NCBI GenBank assembly: GCA_001897305.1
Contig: MKSO01000001.1
Coordinates: forward strand, 240,001 to 272,000
Source of the DNA: Candidatus Saccharimonadota bacterium
GTDB lineage: Bacteria > Patescibacteriota > Saccharimonadia > Saccharimonadales > Saccharimonadaceae
DNA length: 32,000 nt
Reading direction: 5' to 3'
Under the pieces are notes generated by a model. It did no database searches and was not told the DNA's origin. It saw nothing but the letters and a program-made list of their open reading frames with translations. Shown here piece by piece: positions 1,495 through 27,340 of the stretch; the stretch's first letter is position 1; each line of letters begins with the position of its first letter. The position numbers and the translations under genes are program-made.

Positions 1495-1530
1495 AGTAAA
1501 AAATAGACTCCAACCGGGGTCTATTTTTCT
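1495..1530. terminator. bidirectional intrinsic terminator between convergent tsf and the minus-strand gene
   Basis: Stem TAGACTCC (1504-1511) pairs with GGGGTCTA (1516-1523), including one G-T pair; loop AACC. An A-run lies upstream and a T-run downstream. The stem overlaps the stop codon of the minus-strand ORF. Confidence 0.6.
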
Positions 1531-2570
1531 TTTTGCTGATTGGCCAAGGTGTGCATCGTGCGAGAGGTGAGGCGGCCAATAGTGTTTTCTTCGACGTAGC
1601 CGAAGTCGGCCGTAATGGCGATGGCAGGCGTAAAGGTGCGATCATATTGGTGTGCAATAGCCTCAATACCTTCGTGTAGTCGTTGCATAAATGCCCGGGT
1701 GTAGTGCTGTTTGAACGTGGCAAACGATTGCGGAAGATAAGGACTGAAGTATTCAGGTAGGGGAAGTACAATATAGGCACCGTCACCCTGGTCATCATAG
1801 GCTTCATGTATACCAGCCTGTAGCCGCTTATGATATGAGGTGTACGTGTAGGTTAATTCGCGAAGAAACGCATGGACTTGTCCGACAAAAGCATCGTAGA
1901 CGCCGCCCAGGTCGCTATGTACAAAGTGAGTTGAATTCTTGATGTCCCAACGAATAACAAAGGCATTAGGGGCGATTGGTTGCTCGAGTTCAAGTCCGGT
2001 AGCCAGCGATTTGATGCCTTTGGCTTCTCTGGCTATGCGCTGCAGGCGTGCTGTTTGGTCGGCGATATGCTGTACTTCCGAGCGGTGTTGTCGATGTAAT
2101 GCGCTCATCTCTTCATTTTCTAGTAGATCAACACCCGTCCCGGGTGACTCTGGAGTGAATGAATACTGGAGAGCGCCCACGGTTCGGCCGTCATGCGCTA
2201 GCGGCTGAGTATATACGAATTGGTTGTTGAGCGGGTTGATGGCGCTCATGTCAAAGCGGGGTGGGCTGTTCGGTTTTAGCGCTTCTTGTAGAGCTGTTTT
2301 CGCAACAAGTAGCCGGCGTCCGATAATATTATCTGTGCGGAATTCGTAGCGCTCAGGAGCGGTGTCATAAGCATTCGCATTCGCCAACGGTATGGCTAGA
2401 GCTTCCCCTGGTTCGTGGCCAAAACTAACAACACCATCATAACTGCCACTCGCATAGGAAAGGCTATCATTGAGAGCTTGGGTTGCTTTATGTATTTCAT
2501 CCTGGGCACGAATGACGTCGCTGCGCTCACTAAAGCGCTCATAACCACCCGGCAATGGTAATGTTTTCAT
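1521..2570 (-). CDS. hypothetical signalling protein: N-terminal GAF-like region, predicted helical linker, C-terminal class III nucleotidyl cyclase-like domain (function tentative)
   Basis: 349-aa ORF and the only long minus-strand ORF in the first 31 kb. C-terminal motifs: FVIRWDIKNST (compare F-x-D-I-x-G-S/F-T), DDQGDGAYIVLP (compare GDG metal site), AIAITADFGYVEEN...GRLTSRTMHTLA (compare RIGIHTG...N-x-A-S-R). It is coding with good confidence, but the function call is weak. Confidence 0.6.
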   Translation of the reverse strand: MKTLPLPGGYERFSERSDVIRAQDEIHKATQALNDSLSYASGSYDGVVSFGHEPGEALAIPLANANAYDTAPERYEFRTDNIIGRRLLVAKTALQEALKPNSPPRFDMSAINPLNNQFVYTQPLAHDGRTVGALQYSFTPESPGTGVDLLENEEMSALHRQHRSEVQHIADQTARLQRIAREAKGIKSLATGLELEQPIAPNAFVIRWDIKNSTHFVHSDLGGVYDAFVGQVHAFLRELTYTYTSYHKRLQAGIHEAYDDQGDGAYIVLPLPEYFSPYLPQSFATFKQHYTRAFMQRLHEGIEAIAHQYDRTFTPAIAITADFGYVEENTIGRLTSRTMHTLANQQKEK

Positions 2571-14221: not shown

Positions 14222-15238
14222 ATGAAACACGAACATGGTAGTGCCGGCTTTGAAGCTCAGCCTGAACGATACCAAAAAATCGAAAAGCTTAATCATGAAT
14301 CATTTTTGATGCATGAACCCTCGCCTCTACGGGTTGTGCAGTCTCTGCATAGTGTTGGGGCGCCGCGAGATGTAATTACTGATGGATATAATGACGAATA
14401 CCCCTCTGATGTTGTCGAGCAGGCTAAGGCTATCGGGCGTCATATAGTAGTGGGTAACGTCAGTCCCTTAAATGGGTATGGGCCACGAGATATGTCTGGT
14501 GAGGAAAAAGTCGCCGATGCGCAGCATAACATCCATGAATTTCTCGCTCGCAATAATGTCGATCCTAGTACCGTTCGGATGTTAAGGCCCGAGCGAGATT
14601 ACACGACGCCGTTAAGGGCTGTTAACGTTGACGAAGATAACCTCCAGCCCGATGACACGGGCCTATTACGCCCTGATACTGCTGGTGATTTTCTCTACAC
14701 GTATAACAAAGACAACGTTCTAGCTGCCCGTCCGGCCGATTGTCCTATTGTTTTTCTGTCCGCCGAAACACCAAAGGGTGATATGACGGTCTTATTACAC
14801 CTAGCGTGGCAGGGTGTGGCGCATGGGTATATAGCACAAGCGAAGAGTCAACTTGATGCTCTTGGAGTGGATTGGACTACGCTTCGTGCTCAAATTACCC
14901 CAGGTGGACACGGTGAGACATTTAAGTTTGAGAACTTTAATAAGTACAACCCGCTTGACCAGTTTCCAGAATCTTCAAGTATGTTTACTGATGTTAAAGC
15001 AAATCAAGCCGCAGACGGTGCTGCTTCTTATGACTTTGGTATTGACCTTGCGGCTGAGGTATACGAGAAGCTTGTTGAGACATGGAGCGTGGACCCGTAT
15101 CAGCTATTTCTTGACACGAGTGACACCACATCACCAACTGTAGGGTATTCATCTCACAGCCGTTCGTTTAAGGAGTATGAAGGTGCTGGTGGCGAGAATT
15201 CACGCGACTTAGTTATGGCAATACCCTCGCTAGATTAG
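14222..15238 (+). CDS. YfiH/PgeF (DUF152, laccase-domain) family protein with long N-terminal extension
   Basis: 338 aa. Family motifs RPADCPIVFL, LLHLAWQGVAHG and a C-terminal GYSSHSRS...SRDLVMA (compare ADCxP, HAGWRG, SYRR...GR). Confidence 0.7.
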   Translation: MKHEHGSAGFEAQPERYQKIEKLNHESFLMHEPSPLRVVQSLHSVGAPRDVITDGYNDEYPSDVVEQAKAIGRHIVVGNVSPLNGYGPRDMSGEEKVADAQHNIHEFLARNNVDPSTVRMLRPERDYTTPLRAVNVDEDNLQPDDTGLLRPDTAGDFLYTYNKDNVLAARPADCPIVFLSAETPKGDMTVLLHLAWQGVAHGYIAQAKSQLDALGVDWTTLRAQITPGGHGETFKFENFNKYNPLDQFPESSSMFTDVKANQAADGAASYDFGIDLAAEVYEKLVETWSVDPYQLFLDTSDTTSPTVGYSSHSRSFKEYEGAGGENSRDLVMAIPSLD

Positions 15239-24659: not shown

Positions 24660-24801
24660 CCAAATTATCATACTCCTCTAGTTCCCGCTTTTTATCAAAA
24701 GAAGCACTAAGGATACGAGAACCTTTATACGTGTGTGTAACTACGAGGCGCTGATAAGCGTCTTCGAGAAACCGATTCACCCAGCAAAGAAGGGAAGTGC
24801 C

Positions 24802-25293
24802 ATGTTCGAAGCAATCAGCATGACCGACCAAGCGCGTTCGATGATCGATGACGCCGGTTTGGCGGCGCTCCAGCTCCAGGACCCATTCGTGTCCAGCGAG
24901 CACCTGCTGCTCGTTCTGTCCGCTTCGGCGAACACCGTCGCCCGACGGCTGCTCGATCACTTCGGGCTGTCCCACGAACTGGTCGACCGAAATGTCGGCC
25001 TGTATCGTCAGGCGACTGGCTACTTGCCGCTCTCGGGCGGCTTGCCGATCGGCGATGGCAAGTACGACATGATGTTCACGAAGGCCATCGACTTGGCCTG
25101 GAACGAGGCGACCTACTTCGGTGGGCCGCGAGGTACCCGAGGAGTCGTCGGCACCGAGCATTTGCTCATTGGGTTGTCGCTCGACCCGAAGGGCTTCGCG
25201 GGCAACTTCTTGCCGACCAACGGCGCTGACTACGTCAACCTGCGATCGGTTCTGGCCAAGTTCGGCGCCCAAGAGGGTGCCGTGCCGGCCTGA
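24802..25293 (+). CDS. stand-alone Clp N-terminal (Clp_N double repeat) domain protein, on a high-GC island
   Basis: Repeat 1: MFEAISMTDQARSMIDDAGLAALQLQDPFVSSEHLLLVLS (compare the ClpC/ClpB N-terminus MFERFT..A...A...A......I.TEHLLLGL). Repeat 2: FTKAIDLAWNEA...GVVGTEHLLIGLS. No AAA+ module follows. SD-like GAAGGGAAG upstream. The track ORF starts at GTG 24733, but ATG 24802 fits the family N-terminus. Confidence 0.8.
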   Translation: MFEAISMTDQARSMIDDAGLAALQLQDPFVSSEHLLLVLSASANTVARRLLDHFGLSHELVDRNVGLYRQATGYLPLSGGLPIGDGKYDMMFTKAIDLAWNEATYFGGPRGTRGVVGTEHLLIGLSLDPKGFAGNFLPTNGADYVNLRSVLAKFGAQEGAVPA

Positions 25294-25309
25294 GGGGTCG
25301 GTTTCTCAA

Positions 25310-25346
25310 GCAAGCAGATACCCGTGTCGCGCGGGTATCTGCTTGC
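25310..25346 (+). terminator. strong stem-loop without U-tract downstream of the Clp_N gene
   Basis: GCAAGCAGATACCCG (25310-25324) is exactly complementary to CGGGTATCTGCTTGC (25332-25346). It starts 17 nt after the TGA stop and has no T-run after it. Confidence 0.5.
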
Positions 25347-25410
25347 AAGAGATATCAGGATTCGTAGTTGTACATACAAAGCCCTGACAATGGAGTATAC
25401 TATAAGCGTT

Positions 25411-25584
25411 ATGAATAAACTTCTTATTACTATTGGCGCTGCAATTGGCGGTATCATCGGAGCTTACATACCATTTCTATGGGGTGACACTGACATATTT
25501 AGCGGCTGGAGTATTTTACTTGCCACGGTTGGTGGCATTGTGGGTATTTGGGCTGGGTTTAAACTCGCTCAGCGCATAGGCTAG
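25411..25584 (+). CDS. hypothetical small Gly-rich membrane protein (two TM helices)
   Basis: 57 aa from ATG 25411 (MNKLLITIGAAIGGIIGAY...LLATVGGIVGIWAGFKLAQRIG). The track ORF begins at 25324 inside the upstream hairpin, which is unlikely to be translated. ATG 25390 is an alternative start. Confidence 0.5.
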   Translation: MNKLLITIGAAIGGIIGAYIPFLWGDTDIFSGWSILLATVGGIVGIWAGFKLAQRIG

Positions 25585-25596
25585 TCAATACGATTA

Positions 25597-25605
25597 TGCT
25601 ATACT
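25597..25605 (+). promoter_or_regulatory. candidate extended -10 (TGcTATACT) 10 nt upstream of the ftsE ATG
   Basis: TGCTATACT at 25597-25605, ATG at 25616, no SD. Confidence 0.4.
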
Positions 25606-25615
25606 TCATACAGAG

Positions 25616-26299
25616 ATGATTCTACTAGATAGGGTAACAAAAACATACGGCAAAGATAACGCTCCGGCCCTCAACCGCATGAGCCTTTTTGTTGAACCGC
25701 GCGAATTCGTTATTATTATTGGTTCATCGGGCGCCGGAAAATCAACGTTGTTAAAACTACTCACCCGCGAAGAGAAGCCAACTAGCGGCAAAATCGTGGT
25801 GGGCGGCATCGATTACGACACTCTTAAAGATTCACAAATCCCTATGCTCCGCCGTAAAATTGGCGTGGTTTTCCAAGACTTCAAACTACTTCCACAGCGC
25901 ACGGTGTTTGAGAACATCGCTTTTGCGCTGGAAATCGCCGGCATGACCGGCCGCGAGATTAAAAGTACCGTACCAAAGGTGATTGACCTAGTGGGCTTAA
26001 CGGGTAAGGAAAAGCAGTTCCCAAGCCAGCTATCTGGTGGTGAACGTCAGCGCGTTGCTATTGCCCGTGCGATTGTTCGTCAGCCTAAAATCCTGATTGC
26101 CGACGAGCCAACCGGTAACCTCGACCCTAAAAACACTTGGGAAATTGTGCGTTTACTTGAAAAAATTAACAAATACGGCACTACCGTACTGCTTACTACT
26201 CACAATGCCGATATCGTGAACAAATTAAAGCGTCGCGTTATTACTATTGAAGAAGGTAAAATTACCGGTGACCAGGCCGAGGGAAGCTACCGGCAGTAG
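25616..26299 (+). CDS. ftsE: cell division ABC transporter ATP-binding protein FtsE
   Basis: 227 aa. Walker A GSSGAGKST, VFQDFKLLPQRTVFENIAFAL, LSGGERQRVAIARA, ILIADEPTGNLDP. Followed by ftsX. Confidence 0.92.
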   Translation: MILLDRVTKTYGKDNAPALNRMSLFVEPREFVIIIGSSGAGKSTLLKLLTREEKPTSGKIVVGGIDYDTLKDSQIPMLRRKIGVVFQDFKLLPQRTVFENIAFALEIAGMTGREIKSTVPKVIDLVGLTGKEKQFPSQLSGGERQRVAIARAIVRQPKILIADEPTGNLDPKNTWEIVRLLEKINKYGTTVLLTTHNADIVNKLKRRVITIEEGKITGDQAEGSYRQ

Positions 26300-26308
26300 G
26301 GTAATAGT

Positions 26309-27340
26309 ATGGTACGACAGAATCAAAAAGAGAATCGGCAAGAGCAGAAGGCGAATAAGGTCGTCAAGGCTAAAACGAGCGCTAAAGCTTTAGCCCAGAA
26401 GAAGCATCATCGCCGCCAGTGGATTACTTTCCTGCGCATGTGTCGCTACGGGGTCAATAATTTTACCCGTAATGCTTGGTTAACAGTGGCTGCTACCGCG
26501 GTTATGACTATTACGCTGTTTGTTATTTTTGTCAGTTTTGTTTCACATAACGTTCTTATTGATACGGTTGACCAACTCCGCGATAAAGTAAACATGTCTA
26601 TTTACTTGAAAAACGACACCACCGAAAAGGATGTCGATACGGTAGTGGCGCAAATTGAGAATCTGTCCTCGGTAACAAGTGTAAGTACTAAGTCCCCAGA
26701 AGAAGCCCGAACAGACTTTGTTAACCAAAATAAAACGGATGAGGGAACGCTGGGTGCTGTTAAAGAAGCGACCAACAAATTCCCTTGGACGATCAGTATT
26801 AAGGTAAAAGATATCAACGACACGGCGCAATTGTCTGACTTGGTTAAAAACAACGAACTCGTGAAGGAGCACATTGATCCCAACCGTGACCCGTCGTTTG
26901 CGGGTAGTCGCCGCACCGCCATTGAAACTATTGGTAGGGTAGCGCACTTTGCACAGCAAATCGGTATTCTTATGAGTATCGTTTTTGTGGCTATTTCTAT
27001 GCTGATAATCTTCAATACTATTCGTATGGCCATCTTCAACCGTCGTGAAGAAATCCAGATGATGAAGCTGATTGGGGCCGATAGGGCATTTATTCGCGGG
27101 CCATTTTTAGTAGAAGCGATTGTGTACGGGTTCTTCGCTGCCATTATTGCTACCGGTATGGGCTTTGCATTGTTAGTTCTCGCCGCACCTGCGCTTGCTA
27201 CATATGACATTAATGTTCAGCCAACTCTCACTCTCGCTACGTATTACGCGGGGATTGTACTACTGGCTATGATTATTGTCGGTGCTATTATTGGCATGAT
27301 CTCATCATTACTTGCAACTCGTCGTTATCTTAAGCTTTAA
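26309..27340 (+). CDS. ftsX: cell division permease-like protein FtsX
   Basis: 343 aa. Basic N-terminus, TM1, an extracytoplasmic domain of about 120 aa (MSIYLKNDTTEKDV...), and a C-terminal three-TM FtsX domain (EEIQMMKLIGADRAFIRGPF). Confidence 0.88.
   Translation: MVRQNQKENRQEQKANKVVKAKTSAKALAQKKHHRRQWITFLRMCRYGVNNFTRNAWLTVAATAVMTITLFVIFVSFVSHNVLIDTVDQLRDKVNMSIYLKNDTTEKDVDTVVAQIENLSSVTSVSTKSPEEARTDFVNQNKTDEGTLGAVKEATNKFPWTISIKVKDINDTAQLSDLVKNNELVKEHIDPNRDPSFAGSRRTAIETIGRVAHFAQQIGILMSIVFVAISMLIIFNTIRMAIFNRREEIQMMKLIGADRAFIRGPFLVEAIVYGFFAAIIATGMGFALLVLAAPALATYDINVQPTLTLATYYAGIVLLAMIIVGAIIGMISSLLATRRYLKL

What the first reader, a model, noticed from the sequence alone, without database searches (positions are those of the whole stretch)
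24740..25346. High-GC island encoding a stand-alone Clp_N double-repeat protein: probable horizontal acquisition
Composition changes abruptly. Two 60-nt lines counted by hand inside the gene (24841-24900 and 24901-24960) are 63% and 67% GC. Two neighbouring housekeeping lines (25621-25680 and 23581-23640) are 47% and 53% GC, and the upstream spacer (24601-24660) is 22% GC. Third codon positions in the gene are overwhelmingly G or C.

The high GC also produces a long spurious antisense ORF (24643-25272, minus strand). This is typical of high-GC DNA and does not happen at this scale elsewhere in the window.

The product is only the Clp N-terminal repeat pair, with no AAA+ ATPase. From memory, that domain-only architecture is common in Actinobacteria. 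If this genome is a Saccharibacteria-like epibiont, which live on actinobacterial hosts, a host-derived adaptor or decoy for Clp machinery would be biologically interesting. No integrase, transposase or direct repeats flank the island.
Basis: partly seen in the sequence, partly recalled or inferred. Interest (0 to 1): 0.65.

Follow-up and report, generated by a model that had tools for sequence, protein, structure and literature searches.

The report
GC-rich Clp N-domain cassette in Saccharibacteria
The GC-rich segment is a real gene for a free-standing Clp N-domain protein, but it is one allele of a fast-evolving cassette that related Saccharibacteria carry at the same spot, always GC-rich and with its own conserved RNA control elements, and not a recent import from another organism.

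Summary
Window 24802-25293 encodes a 163-aa double-repeat Clp_N protein with GC 0.63 and GC3 0.81, against 0.45 +/- 0.03 for the 31 other genes. The antisense ORF is a by-product of the codon usage.

Recent horizontal acquisition from Actinobacteria is not supported. The genome is a Saccharibacterium near Ca. Microsaccharimonas. All close homologs (99-38% identity) whose contigs could be read lie in the same prfB-ftsE slot of sister Saccharibacteria, with similarly high GC3. The best outside hits are 30-35% identical and come from mixed phyla.

Among 787 sister-locus ORFs, the 15 top GC3 outliers are all slot or Clp_N-like ORFs. The GC rise is confined to the ORFs and persists although synonymous sites are near saturation. 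It is therefore maintained and not a relic. Its cause is unknown.

Each cassette carries:
- a strong promoter;
- a leader hairpin with covariation (not in Rfam);
- complementary boxes flanking the ORF;
- a strong 3' stem-loop.

One near-identical cassette sits next to a diverged prfB flank, which suggests exchange among Saccharibacteria.

The likely function, by inference only, is a free N-domain competitor or sponge like mycobacterial ClpC2.

The parts
23538..24617 (+). prfB (release factor 2), the conserved upstream flank of the slot. A divergence breakpoint against L001 lies at about 24579.
   Evidence: Pfam PCRF + RF-1. Against L001 there are 12 mismatches at 24503-24578 and then 6 in the next ~790 bp, Fisher p = 8e-9.
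24632..24659 (+). Sigma-70-type promoter of the cassette: TTGAAA, 16-nt spacer, TATAAT, with a TG extension.
   Evidence: 11 of 12 consensus matches. An equivalent TTGnnn/(TG)nTATAAT lies right after the prfB stop in sister loci. Function is inferred.
24724..24782 (+). Conserved leader RNA motif. Its core hairpin is 24745-24752 / 24757-24764 (GAGGCGCU-GAUA-AGCGUCUU), preceded by an invariant UA.
   Evidence: RNAalifold and manual structure agree. 91.7% of cells pair, against 32-49% in slid controls, and 7 of 9 pairs show compensatory changes. G-U pairs place it on the sense strand. The covariance model hits only slot leaders in 941 kb. No Rfam match.
24766..24775 (+). Leader box X (GAGAAACCGA), complementary to box X' just after the stop codon.
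   Evidence: 10/10 complementarity. Cognate leader/tail duplexes average -20.6 kcal/mol, against -13.9 for non-cognate pairs and -12.9 +/- 0.7 for shuffled tails. Box sequences differ between cassettes. MFE and centroid folds of the transcript pair X with X'.
24802..25293 (+). CDS for a 163-aa stand-alone double-repeat Clp N-domain protein ('type A' cassette ORF). GC 0.63, GC3 0.81.
   Evidence: Pfam Clp_N 60.7 bits. AlphaFold model has pLDDT 86 and TM 0.73-0.86 to ClpC1/ClpC N-domains. dN/dS is 0.14-0.17 against the 82-99% identical orthologs, so the gene is under purifying selection. A Shine-Dalgarno-like AAGGGA lies at about 24790-24795.
25298..25307 (+). 3' box X' (TCGGTTTCTC), starting 5 nt after the stop codon.
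25304..25352 (+). GC-rich 3' stem-loop with 21-nt arms and a 7-nt loop, and no T tract. Probably a terminator or mRNA-stabilising element.
   Evidence: Inverted repeat I1. Folding energy is -42.3 kcal/mol, z = -6.1. The consensus terminator scan finds none because there is no T run. Equivalent stem-loops follow all 22 cassettes examined.
24643..25272 (-). Antisense 209-aa ORF, a spurious by-product of GC3-rich codon use.
   Evidence: It lies in the codon-aligned antisense frame, and the sense strand has zero TTA, CTA or TCA codons. Comparable antisense ORFs overlie other GC3-rich cassettes.
25411..25584 (+). 57-aa small hydrophobic protein gene at ordinary GC. It is variably present between the slot and ftsE.
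   Evidence: No Pfam hit. Homologs at 59-71% identity occur in L003, L006, L011, L018 and L088.
25616..27340 (+). ftsE-ftsX, the conserved downstream flank of the slot.
   Evidence: Pfam ABC_tran; FtsX + FtsX_ECD. FtsE is 96-99% identical in the closest sister loci.

Best explanation
The segment is a complete single-gene expression cassette. It is native to a clade of Saccharibacteria (Ca. Microsaccharimonas and relatives) and sits in a variable slot between prfB and ftsEX.

The slot holds one to three short ORFs that are nearly all Clp N-domain proteins of several very divergent types. The window carries 'type A'. These ORFs evolve far faster than their neighbours. They differ in type between close species, and they appear to be swapped between lineages by homologous recombination in the conserved flanks.

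Their GC-rich codon usage is a family-wide trait confined to the ORFs. It persists although synonymous sites have turned over, so it is maintained by an ORF-level force (selection on codons or mRNA, mechanism unknown). It is not left over from a recent foreign origin.

Expression runs from a strong promoter through a leader with a conserved hairpin. Complementary boxes before the ribosome-binding site and just after the stop codon can clamp the mRNA ends. A strong stem-loop ends the transcript. This is inferred post-transcriptional control.

The product has only the ligand-binding N-domain of ClpC-type unfoldases and no ATPase. Most likely it works as a free competitor or sponge for whatever binds such N-domains (adaptor proteins, phospho-arginine-tagged proteins, or N-domain-targeting toxins). 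This would be analogous to mycobacterial ClpC2. The rapid diversification points to a conflict-type role.

Shown: the anatomy, the distribution, the composition, the fold and the RNA covariation. Inferred: regulation, exchange and function.
For: Identity and fold.

Lineage.

Same-slot homologs with high GC3.

Slot survey of 80 sister loci:
- 28 loci have an empty slot (gap under 125 bp).
- About 25 hold Clp_N-like ORFs.
- The rest hold other genes at normal GC3.

The 15 top GC3 outliers among 787 ORFs are all slot or Clp_N-like ORFs.

Hypervariability: the slot protein is 38-56% identical where FtsE is 96-98% and PrfB 85-91%. dN/dS is 0.34-0.55, against 0.01-0.03 for the flanks where it could be estimated.

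Maintained GC3:
- 41-78% of fourfold sites under conserved residues differ between diverged type A orthologs.
- Many of the differences are G<->C swaps.
- GC3 nevertheless stays at 0.71-0.87 in seven of the eight orthologs. It is 0.60 in L087.

The GC rise is ORF-restricted. Leaders average 0.42, ORFs 0.59, and the sequence after the hairpin 0.36.

It is not expression-linked codon bias: rpsB, tsf and frr have GC3 0.45-0.47.

RNA elements.

Cassette exchange.

Not chimeric.

No outside donor.

Homology between cassette types.

Sponge precedent: PMC10030653 and PMC13345244.
Against: - The cause of the maintained GC3 is not identified.
- With synonymous-codon shuffles the ORFs do not fold consistently better than their composition predicts (z from -0.25 to -2.1, one at -4.1). 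A selected ORF-wide structure is therefore not shown.
- I could not check whether this lineage has its own ClpC, ClpB or ClpP partner. None lies in the window or within about 6 kb of prfB in the sister loci. The TM7x paper names only 'a predicted clp protease'.
- The recombination evidence rests mainly on one 880-bp metagenome contig (L001), which could itself be a strain chimera.
- Some slot ORFs are only tentatively Clp_N: hhalign 71% and 88% for two groups, and no Pfam hit for several others.
- No expression or binding data exist.
- An unsampled high-GC reservoir that resupplies cassettes cannot be strictly excluded.
Confidence: 0.62

Rival explanations
1. Recent horizontal acquisition of a foreign (actinobacterial host) gene by this genome. 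On this view the high GC is the un-ameliorated signature of the donor.
For: - The ORF composition is about 11 SD from the genome.
- The codon preferences resemble those of high-GC bacteria.
- Stand-alone Clp_N proteins abound in Actinomycetota (PMC13345244).
- Type B cassettes in sister genomes score 146 bits against Mtb ClpC1-NTD.
- The slot is empty in some congeners: L016, L019 and L023.
Against: - No homolog above about 35% identity was found outside the Saccharibacteria slot among 1.84 billion representatives and 5.8 billion clustered proteins.
- Orthologs down to 38% identity sit in the same slot with high GC3.
- Synonymous sites are near saturation yet remain G/C.
- The GC rise stops at the ORF borders, and lineage-conserved leader and trailer elements abut the ORF.
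- CGA supplies 5 of the 8 Arg codons. From my own knowledge, not a tool result, this is atypical for Actinobacteria.
Confidence: 0.07
2. Ancient capture of an actinobacterial-type ClpC1 N-domain founded the family. The family then diversified in place within Saccharibacteria. This concerns origin only and is compatible with the best explanation.
For: - The nearest named relatives of type B are Gaiellales and Acidimicrobiia Clp_N proteins at 52-61% identity.
- Type B scores higher against mycobacterial ClpC1-NTD (146 bits) than against Bacillus ClpC (100 bits).
- Type A is homologous to types B/C (hhalign 98.7%).
- Saccharibacteria live on Actinobacteria (PMC10768705).
Against: - The control is missing. 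The lineage's own ClpC N-domain, if it has one, was not available, so a partial duplication of a native clpC is equally possible.
- Named hits are a small and biased subset.
- 52-61% identity is also what any ClpC N-domain gives.
Confidence: 0.3
3. GC-biased gene conversion at a recombination hotspot drives the GC rise.
For: - The slot is a site of allele and cassette turnover, with an apparent recombination breakpoint in prfB.
- Tandem paralogs exist: L003, L006 and L088.
Against: - The exchanged tract includes the promoter, spacer and leader, which stay AT-rich at 0.17-0.48 GC.
- GC1 and GC2 are only mildly raised while GC3 is extreme.
- Other genes occupying the same slot have normal GC3.
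Confidence: 0.06
4. Assembly or binning artefact: a high-GC contaminant fragment joined into a Saccharibacteria contig.
For: The composition changes abruptly, and many contigs carrying the gene are short.
Against: - L097, an independent JGI assembly, matches the window from 23914 to 25621 across both junctions.
- The same flank-cassette junctions were assembled independently in ENA, NCBI, JGI and Logan data.
- The short contigs are better explained by assemblies breaking at a strain-variable locus.
Confidence: 0.01

Closest known systems
Mycobacterial/actinobacterial ClpC2 (partial ClpC1 homologue; 'molecular sponge' and pArg- and antibiotic-sensing repressor)
   Same: - It is a small protein built on a ClpC1-N-domain-like fold with no AAA+ ATPase.
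- It acts by binding ligands of the ClpC1 N-domain and so competes with ClpC1 (PMC10030653, PMC13345244).
- Type A keeps the repeat-1 Thr and both Glu-His motifs, which are conserved across type A. From my own knowledge these correspond to pArg-site residues of ClpC. This is sequence-level only.
   Different: - ClpC2 has an extra N-terminal DNA-binding domain and represses its own promoter. The 163-aa protein here is the N-domain repeat pair alone.
- By sequence it is no closer to ClpC2 than to ClpC1. No ClpC2 chain passed E <= 0.01. Fold TM is 0.65 to ClpC2-CTD against 0.73-0.77 to ClpC1-NTD.
- Control here appears to be RNA-based.
- The locus is hypervariable and GC-anomalous.
N-terminal domain of ClpC/ClpC1 (Clp R domain, Pfam PF02861 x2) within full-length Hsp100 unfoldases
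   Same: - It has the eight-helix pseudo-twofold double repeat.
- The best structural matches are Mtb ClpC1-NTD and B. subtilis ClpC-NTD, at TM 0.73-0.86 and 24-29% identity.
   Different: - No D1 or D2 AAA+ modules follow. A stop codon comes after residue 163, then a 3' stem-loop.
- The inter-repeat linker is longer, and about 5 residues are inserted before the second 'GTEHLL' motif.
Plant ClpT1/ClpT2 (stand-alone Clp N-domain proteins that bind the ClpP/R core)
   Same: It is a free-standing N-domain-only protein of the same fold (TM 0.67-0.71 to 4y0b).
   Different: Identity is only 16-17%. ClpT proteins are eukaryotic plastid proteins. There is no evidence here for ClpP binding.
Long-range 5'-3' mRNA pairing elements (hok mRNA fold-back inhibition; S. 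aureus icaR 3'UTR-5'UTR pairing). Recalled from established literature, not retrieved here.
   Same: Complementary boxes in the leader and just downstream of the stop codon covary between cassettes. They close the ORF in predicted folds.
   Different: There is no toxin or antisense RNA partner, and no demonstrated effect on translation or decay. In most cassettes box X lies upstream of the Shine-Dalgarno sequence and not on it.
Integron gene cassettes / attC sites
   Same: They are short promoter-proximal ORF cassettes in tandem. Each ends in a structured imperfect palindrome whose structure is more conserved than its sequence.
   Different: - There is no integrase in the window.
- The outer stem (GGTTTCTC...GAGAAAC) does not fit the RYYYAAC...GTTRRRY core sites.
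- Each cassette has its own leader.
- The observed exchange breakpoint lies in the flanking gene, which points to homologous and not site-specific recombination.

Membership tests
Pfam Clp_N (PF02861) double-repeat N-domain | Two tandem Clp_N repeats scoring above the gathering threshold | tested here: met
   60.7 bits against a cut-off of 20.7, with two stretches.
Pfam Clp_N (PF02861) double-repeat N-domain | Eight-helix pseudo-twofold fold superposable on solved ClpC/ClpC1 N-domains | tested here: met
   The model has pLDDT 86.3 and pTM 0.85. TM is 0.73-0.86 with rmsd 2.2-3.6 A to 3wdc, 8b9u, 2y1r, 6pbs and 2k77.
Full-length Clp/Hsp100 unfoldase (ClpC/ClpA/ClpB) | AAA+ ATPase module(s) following the N-domain | tested here: not met
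   The ORF ends at residue 163 and a stem-loop follows. No Clp-type Walker A motif occurs in the window or in any fetched locus.
Actinobacterial ClpC2 | N-terminal DNA-binding domain plus C-terminal ClpC1-NTD-like domain | tested here: not met
   The two Clp_N repeats span residues 7-150 of 163, which leaves no room for an extra domain.
Actinobacterial ClpC2 | Sequence closer to ClpC2 than to ClpC1 N-domains | tested here: not met
   No ClpC2 chain reached E <= 0.01 in the PDB sequence search. The fold match to ClpC2-CTD (TM 0.64-0.65) is weaker than to ClpC1-NTD.
Actinobacterial ClpC2 | Binds cyclomarin/rufomycin and/or phospho-arginine and thereby titrates them from ClpC1 | not testable with these tools
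   Sequence hints only. F2, T8, E33-H34 and E119-H120 are conserved across type A.
Horizontally acquired genomic island | Composition deviating from the host genome | tested here: met
   GC3 is 0.81 against 0.45 +/- 0.03.
Horizontally acquired genomic island | Closest homologs in another lineage (an identifiable donor) | tested here: not met
   All close homologs whose contigs could be read are in the same slot of sister Saccharibacteria. Outside hits are 35% identical or less and come from mixed phyla.
Horizontally acquired genomic island | Mobility genes, a tRNA target or direct-repeat scars | tested here: not met
   No integrase, transposase or tRNA in the 32 kb. Only short ORF-bracketing inverted boxes are present.
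Horizontally acquired genomic island | Patchy presence among close relatives | tested here: met
   The slot is empty in 28 of the surveyed loci, including the Microsaccharimonas loci L016 and L023. Elsewhere it holds different cassette types or other genes.
Integron gene cassette | IntI integrase and attC sites with RYYYAAC/GTTRRRY cores | tested here: not met
   No integrase is present. The 3' palindromes lack the core-site consensus on inspection.
Known structured RNA family (Rfam 15) | Match at or above a family's gathering score | tested here: not met
   The only hit is sub-threshold, P17 at 29.6 bits against 45. There are no hits in L003, L006, L087 or L088.

The most novel reading that the evidence does not exclude
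Saccharibacteria of this clade keep a dedicated, interchangeable set of free ClpC-type N-domain proteins at a recombination-prone slot.

These proteins would be conflict molecules. They could be sponges protecting the epibiont from ClpC-N-domain-targeting peptides made by its actinobacterial hosts, or decoys aimed at the host's ClpC1.

Their ORFs are actively kept GC-rich. Their mRNAs are governed by a previously undescribed leader hairpin plus a 5'-3' end clamp.

This would be a new regulatory RNA motif, and a rare case of gene-family-specific codon composition maintained against the genome's own bias.
Probability: 0.25. Interest if true: 0.85.

Novelty: new variant of a known kind. Interest (0 to 1): 0.6.

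Why it matters
It corrects a tempting inference. An abrupt GC island in a reduced epibiont genome looks like host-derived DNA, yet here it is a lineage-native gene family whose odd composition is maintained. Composition alone would mislead HGT screens in these bacteria.

It also gives three testable leads:
- A hypervariable locus of ClpC-N-domain-only proteins in organisms that live on Actinobacteria. From my own knowledge, Actinobacteria are the producers of the known ClpC1-N-domain-targeting antibiotics.
- A candidate new cis-regulatory RNA: a leader hairpin with strong covariation, plus covarying 5'/3' boxes.
- A clean natural case for asking what can hold synonymous sites at about 80% GC in one gene family of a 47% GC genome.

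Tried and rejected
1. Actinobacterial donor. The exhaustive HMMER search and cluster look-ups found no close outside homolog.

2. Phage vector. The viral-contig scan gave only 23-34% identical Clp_N hits in large phage contigs.

3. Metagenome scan for type A outside the slot. It returned only L097 (identical to the window) and remote hits at 36% identity or less.

4. Known RNA families. Nothing reached threshold.

5. Selected ORF-wide mRNA structure. The dinucleotide-shuffle z of -6.85 did not survive the stricter synonymous-codon shuffle (one search timed out). I dropped the claim.

6. Intrinsic terminator. The consensus scan finds none because the stem-loop has no T tract.

7. DNA operator instead of RNA hairpin. 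Rejected because many G-U pairs would be mismatches in duplex DNA and on the opposite strand.

8. Integron attC. The core motifs and the integrase are absent.

9. ClgR or HAIR-type operators. I considered these by eye. The spacing and sequence do not fit across the cassette types.

10. Real antisense gene. Rejected because the ORF lies in the codon-aligned frame, where stops depend only on TTA, CTA and TCA usage.

11. Translational selection. Ribosomal and translation-factor genes have ordinary GC3.

12. Whether Saccharibacteria have ClpC. The literature look-up was inconclusive, because the clpC named in the paper is the host's. One literature query timed out.
Full report
**1. Observation**

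The two lines inside the gene are 63.3% and 66.7% GC. The two housekeeping lines are 46.7% and 53.3%, and the upstream spacer line is 21.7%. The stated span 24740-25346 is 61.6% GC, against 47.4% for the window. A gene-sized window is 6.75 SD above every window elsewhere.

The gene runs from 24802 (ATG) to 25293 and encodes 163 aa. GC1/GC2/GC3 are 0.63/0.44/0.81. The 31 other genes have GC3 0.451 +/- 0.032 with a maximum of 0.496.

Pfam finds Clp_N twice, at 60.7 bits against a cut-off of 20.7.

The 209-aa antisense ORF 24643-25272 exists. It lies in the codon-aligned antisense frame, where a stop needs a sense TTA, CTA or TCA codon.

The window is a housekeeping block: rpsB, tsf, frr, uppS, rseP, three class II aminoacyl-tRNA synthetases (one of them serS), greA, secA, an M16 peptidase, a murD-like ligase, prfB, then ftsE, ftsX, a CHAP-domain protein and an S41 protease. 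It has no integrase, transposase or tRNA.

The join is not an assembly artefact. An independent JGI contig (L097) matches the window from 23914 to 25621 across both junctions, with about 10 point differences and one 8-nt indel.

**2. Lineage and the slot**

PrfB is 88-89% identical to species representatives named Ca. Microsaccharimonas, Saccharimonadales or Saccharibacteria.

I surveyed the prfB-ftsE interval in the 80 best sister loci:
- In 28 loci the two genes are 47-122 bp apart and nothing is inserted. These include the Microsaccharimonas loci L016 and L023.
- In about 25 loci, mostly the closest relatives, the interval holds one to three ORFs of about 130-230 aa.
- In the rest it holds unrelated genes (LemA-like, pilin-like, proline-rich and others) with ordinary GC3.

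**3. The close homologs are in the same slot and are also GC-rich**

A search of 5.8 billion clustered proteins gave only nine hits. An exhaustive HMMER search of 1.84 billion representatives gave three below E = 1e-30.

Every homolog whose contig I could read lies between prfB and ftsE of a Saccharibacteria-type contig:
- P0001 at 99% identity, and the protein on L097 at 100%;
- P0002 and P0003 at 82%;
- P0004 at 56% and P0005 at 53%;
- P0020 at 41% and P0083 at 38%.

P0006 was not looked up, and no DNA was available for P0007.

GC3 of these genes is 0.60-0.87, against 0.41-0.52 for their flanks (L001 offers only a 41-codon prfB fragment).

The next-best proteins are multi-repeat Clp_N proteins at 30-35% identity. 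The named ones come from Capsulimonadaceae, Chloroflexia and Actinoplanes. Viral contigs and the metagenome scan add nothing closer.

**4. A hypervariable family**

By BLAST the slot ORFs fall into several types:
- Type A is the window's kind.
- Type B begins MFERFTDR... and scores 146 bits against Mtb ClpC1-NTD.
- Types C and D are more divergent.

Pfam Clp_N passes its threshold in the window and in L003 (two ORFs), L006 (two), L007, L008, L020, L021 and L022. Precomputed Pfam marks flag the L001, L002, L087, L088 and L089 genes as Clp_N, some only weakly or faintly. L028, L039, L042, L043 and L062 were linked to Clp_N proteins by tblastn or phmmer.

Profile comparison gives these links:
- Type A to types B/C: 98.7% probability.
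- Type D to B/C: 71%, tentative.
- The 159/168-aa proteins to B/C: 88%, tentative.

Where FtsE stays 96-98% identical and PrfB 85-91%, the type A protein falls to 38-56%. dN/dS is 0.34-0.55 for those pairs, against 0.01-0.03 for the flanks where it could be estimated. It is 0.14-0.17 for the close pairs, so the gene is functional and under constraint.

Cassette type does not track genome relatedness. L088 has PrfB at 91% but type A at 38%. L003 has PrfB at 87% and type A at 56%. L007 has PrfB at 88% and carries only type B.

**5. The GC anomaly belongs to the family and is maintained**

Among 787 ORFs of at least 110 aa in about 1 Mb of sister loci, the 15 with GC3 more than 0.15 above their locus median are of two kinds only. 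They are slot ORFs, or Clp_N-like ORFs lying just upstream of prfB in more distant relatives (L071, L072, L077). Non-Clp_N genes occupying the slot are not elevated.

Between diverged type A orthologs, 41-78% of fourfold sites under conserved residues differ. That is at or near saturation for this composition. Many of the differences are G<->C swaps. GC3 nevertheless stays at 0.71-0.87 in seven of the eight orthologs, and is 0.60 in L087.

A simple decay model from one GC-rich ancestor predicts a GC3 of about 0.68 at the WIN-L003 divergence (my calculation from the counts). The observed values are 0.81 and 0.85.

The rise is confined to the ORFs. The 100-nt leaders average 0.42, the ORFs 0.59 (GC3 0.73), and the 70 nt after the hairpins 0.36. 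Spacers inside the three-cassette array of L003 drop back to about 0.46.

These results argue against two explanations:
- Imported DNA arriving with its own flanks.
- Biased gene conversion acting over the exchanged tract.

rpsB, tsf and frr have GC3 0.45-0.47, so these are not the genome's preferred codons for high expression.

What holds GC3 up is not explained. The GC-rich ORFs fold about 1.5 times more stably per nucleotide than native genes. That stability follows from composition, not from codon arrangement: synonymous-shuffle z values run from -0.25 to -2.1, with one at -4.1.

**6. Cassette anatomy (found while comparing loci)**

*Promoter.* A near-consensus promoter follows the prfB stop. 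In the window it is at 24632-24659 and matches 11 of 12 positions with a TG extension. Equivalents occur in the sister loci.

*Leader hairpin.* About 35-60 nt before each start codon lies an invariant UA followed by a 6-9-bp hairpin. Its sequence differs between cassettes but its pairing is kept.
- In an alignment of 18 cassettes of all types, RNAalifold finds the helix independently.
- 91.7% of cells pair, against 32-49% when the partner is slid by 1-3 columns. Seven of 9 pairs have changes on both sides. None of 500 shuffles reaches the observed covariation.
- Frequent G-U pairs place the structure on the sense RNA.
- A covariance model searched over 941 kb on both strands hits only slot leaders at E < 0.2. 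These include three not used to build it (L028, L010 and, weakly, L043). The window has one hit, at 24724-24782.
- Rfam 15 has no match.

*Complementary boxes.* A box between the hairpin and the ribosome-binding site is complementary to a box starting right after the stop codon. In the window these are GAGAAACCGA at 24766-24775 and TCGGTTTCTC at 25298-25307.
- The box sequence differs between cassettes, for example ACTCAGTTCTC/GAGAACTGAGT, ATATCG/CGATAT and AGTGAACTCA/TGAGTTCACT.
- Cognate duplexes average -20.6 kcal/mol, against -13.9 for non-cognate pairs and -12.9 +/- 0.7 for shuffled tails.
- MFE and centroid folds of the window transcript close the ORF with this pairing.

*3' stem-loop.* All 22 cassettes end in a 12-17-bp GC-rich stem-loop of -28 to -43 kcal/mol with no T tract. 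In the window it is at 25304-25352.

These elements show that the ORF sits in a regulatory frame native to the lineage. I infer post-transcriptional control, but this is not shown.

**7. Lateral exchange**

Against contig L001 the window differs at 12 of 90 positions in the prfB 3' end (24503-24578). It then differs at only 6 of about 790 positions through spacer, leader, gene and hairpin (Fisher p = 8e-9).

L097 shows that the window's own prfB is otherwise stable, with 2 point differences over about 700 bp.

A near-identical cassette therefore sits next to a diverged flank. That is the signature of homologous-recombination transfer between Saccharibacteria lineages. A strain-chimeric short contig is the caveat.

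So horizontal movement probably occurs, but within the lineage's own cassette pool.

**8. Protein and likely function**

The AlphaFold model (pLDDT 86.3, pTM 0.85) superposes on ClpC1 and ClpC N-domains at TM 0.73-0.86. It matches ClpC2-CTD (0.65) and plant ClpT1 (0.67-0.71) less well.

Conserved across type A are F2, T8, E33-H34 and E119-H120.

With no ATPase the protein can only bind. Known ligands of this domain are:
- adaptor proteins;
- phospho-arginine tags;
- the antibiotics cyclomarin, rufomycin, ecumicin and lassomycin (PDB titles; PMC13345244).

Mycobacterial ClpC2 uses the same fold as a sponge for cyclomarin and as a pArg sensor (PMC10030653, PMC13345244).

The best guess is therefore a free competitor or sponge. 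The fast diversification, tandem paralogs and cassette swapping fit a conflict role. I put this at about 35%.

I could not establish whether the lineage has its own ClpC.

**9. Verdict**

The protein is a new subfamily of a known kind, the stand-alone Clp N-domain proteins. The locus behaviour is unusual. It combines family-specific, ORF-restricted, maintained GC3 with an undescribed leader hairpin and 5'/3' boxes, and it is worth follow-up.

Noticed in passing
window 24724-24782 (and L003 1609-1669, 2265-2322; L006 316-374; L021 7150-7210; L018 2506-2569; and others): There is a candidate new cis-regulatory RNA. It is an invariant UA plus a 6-9-bp hairpin with strong covariation, found in the leader of every slot cassette. 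It is absent from Rfam 15 and found nowhere else in 941 kb.
   Followed up: yes
window 24766-24775 and 25298-25307; equivalents in 17 other cassettes: Complementary boxes bracket the ORF just upstream of the ribosome-binding site and just after the stop codon. They covary between cassettes. Predicted folds close the mRNA ends with them.
   Followed up: yes
L071 4744-5901; L072 4079-5906; L077 5345-5905: In more distant relatives (PrfB 67-69%), tandem Clp_N-like ORFs with raised GC3 (+0.11 to +0.29) lie upstream of prfB and not downstream. The GC trait therefore follows the gene family and not the position.
   Followed up: partly
window 25411-25584: A 57-aa hydrophobic protein gene with no Pfam family sits between the slot and ftsE. 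It is present in only some sister loci (L003, L006, L011, L018, L088) at 59-71% identity and has ordinary GC.
   Followed up: partly
window 25616-27340 against the sister loci: FtsE is 96-99% identical across genomes in which PrfB is 85-91% and FtsX only 61-67%. Its synonymous sites are nonetheless saturated (pS 0.59-0.81). This reflects strong purifying selection, not recent transfer.
   Followed up: partly
L010 7072-12582: In this Microsaccharimonas genome the slot is expanded to 5.5 kb. It holds several ordinary-GC genes, among them a 515-aa protein on the minus strand and a 349-aa membrane protein. One GC3-rich 193-aa ORF with the leader motif lies next to ftsE.
   Followed up: no
window 23538-24617: prfB is a single uninterrupted 359-codon ORF. 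It lacks the in-frame UGA and programmed +1 frameshift found in many bacteria.
   Followed up: no
window 14222-15238 and 16521-17192: Two paralogous Cu-oxidase_4 (PF02578, laccase/YfiH-like) genes flank serS.
   Followed up: no
window 1521-2570 (-): This is the only sizeable minus-strand gene in the window. It encodes 349 aa with no Pfam match and has slightly raised GC (0.50). It is also the fourth most deviant tetranucleotide window.
   Followed up: no
window 25179-25343: There is a sub-threshold Rfam hit to Pseudomonas sRNA P17 (29.6 bits against a gathering score of 45). It spans the GC-rich 3' end of the ORF and part of the stem-loop. I judge it a chance match.
   Followed up: partly
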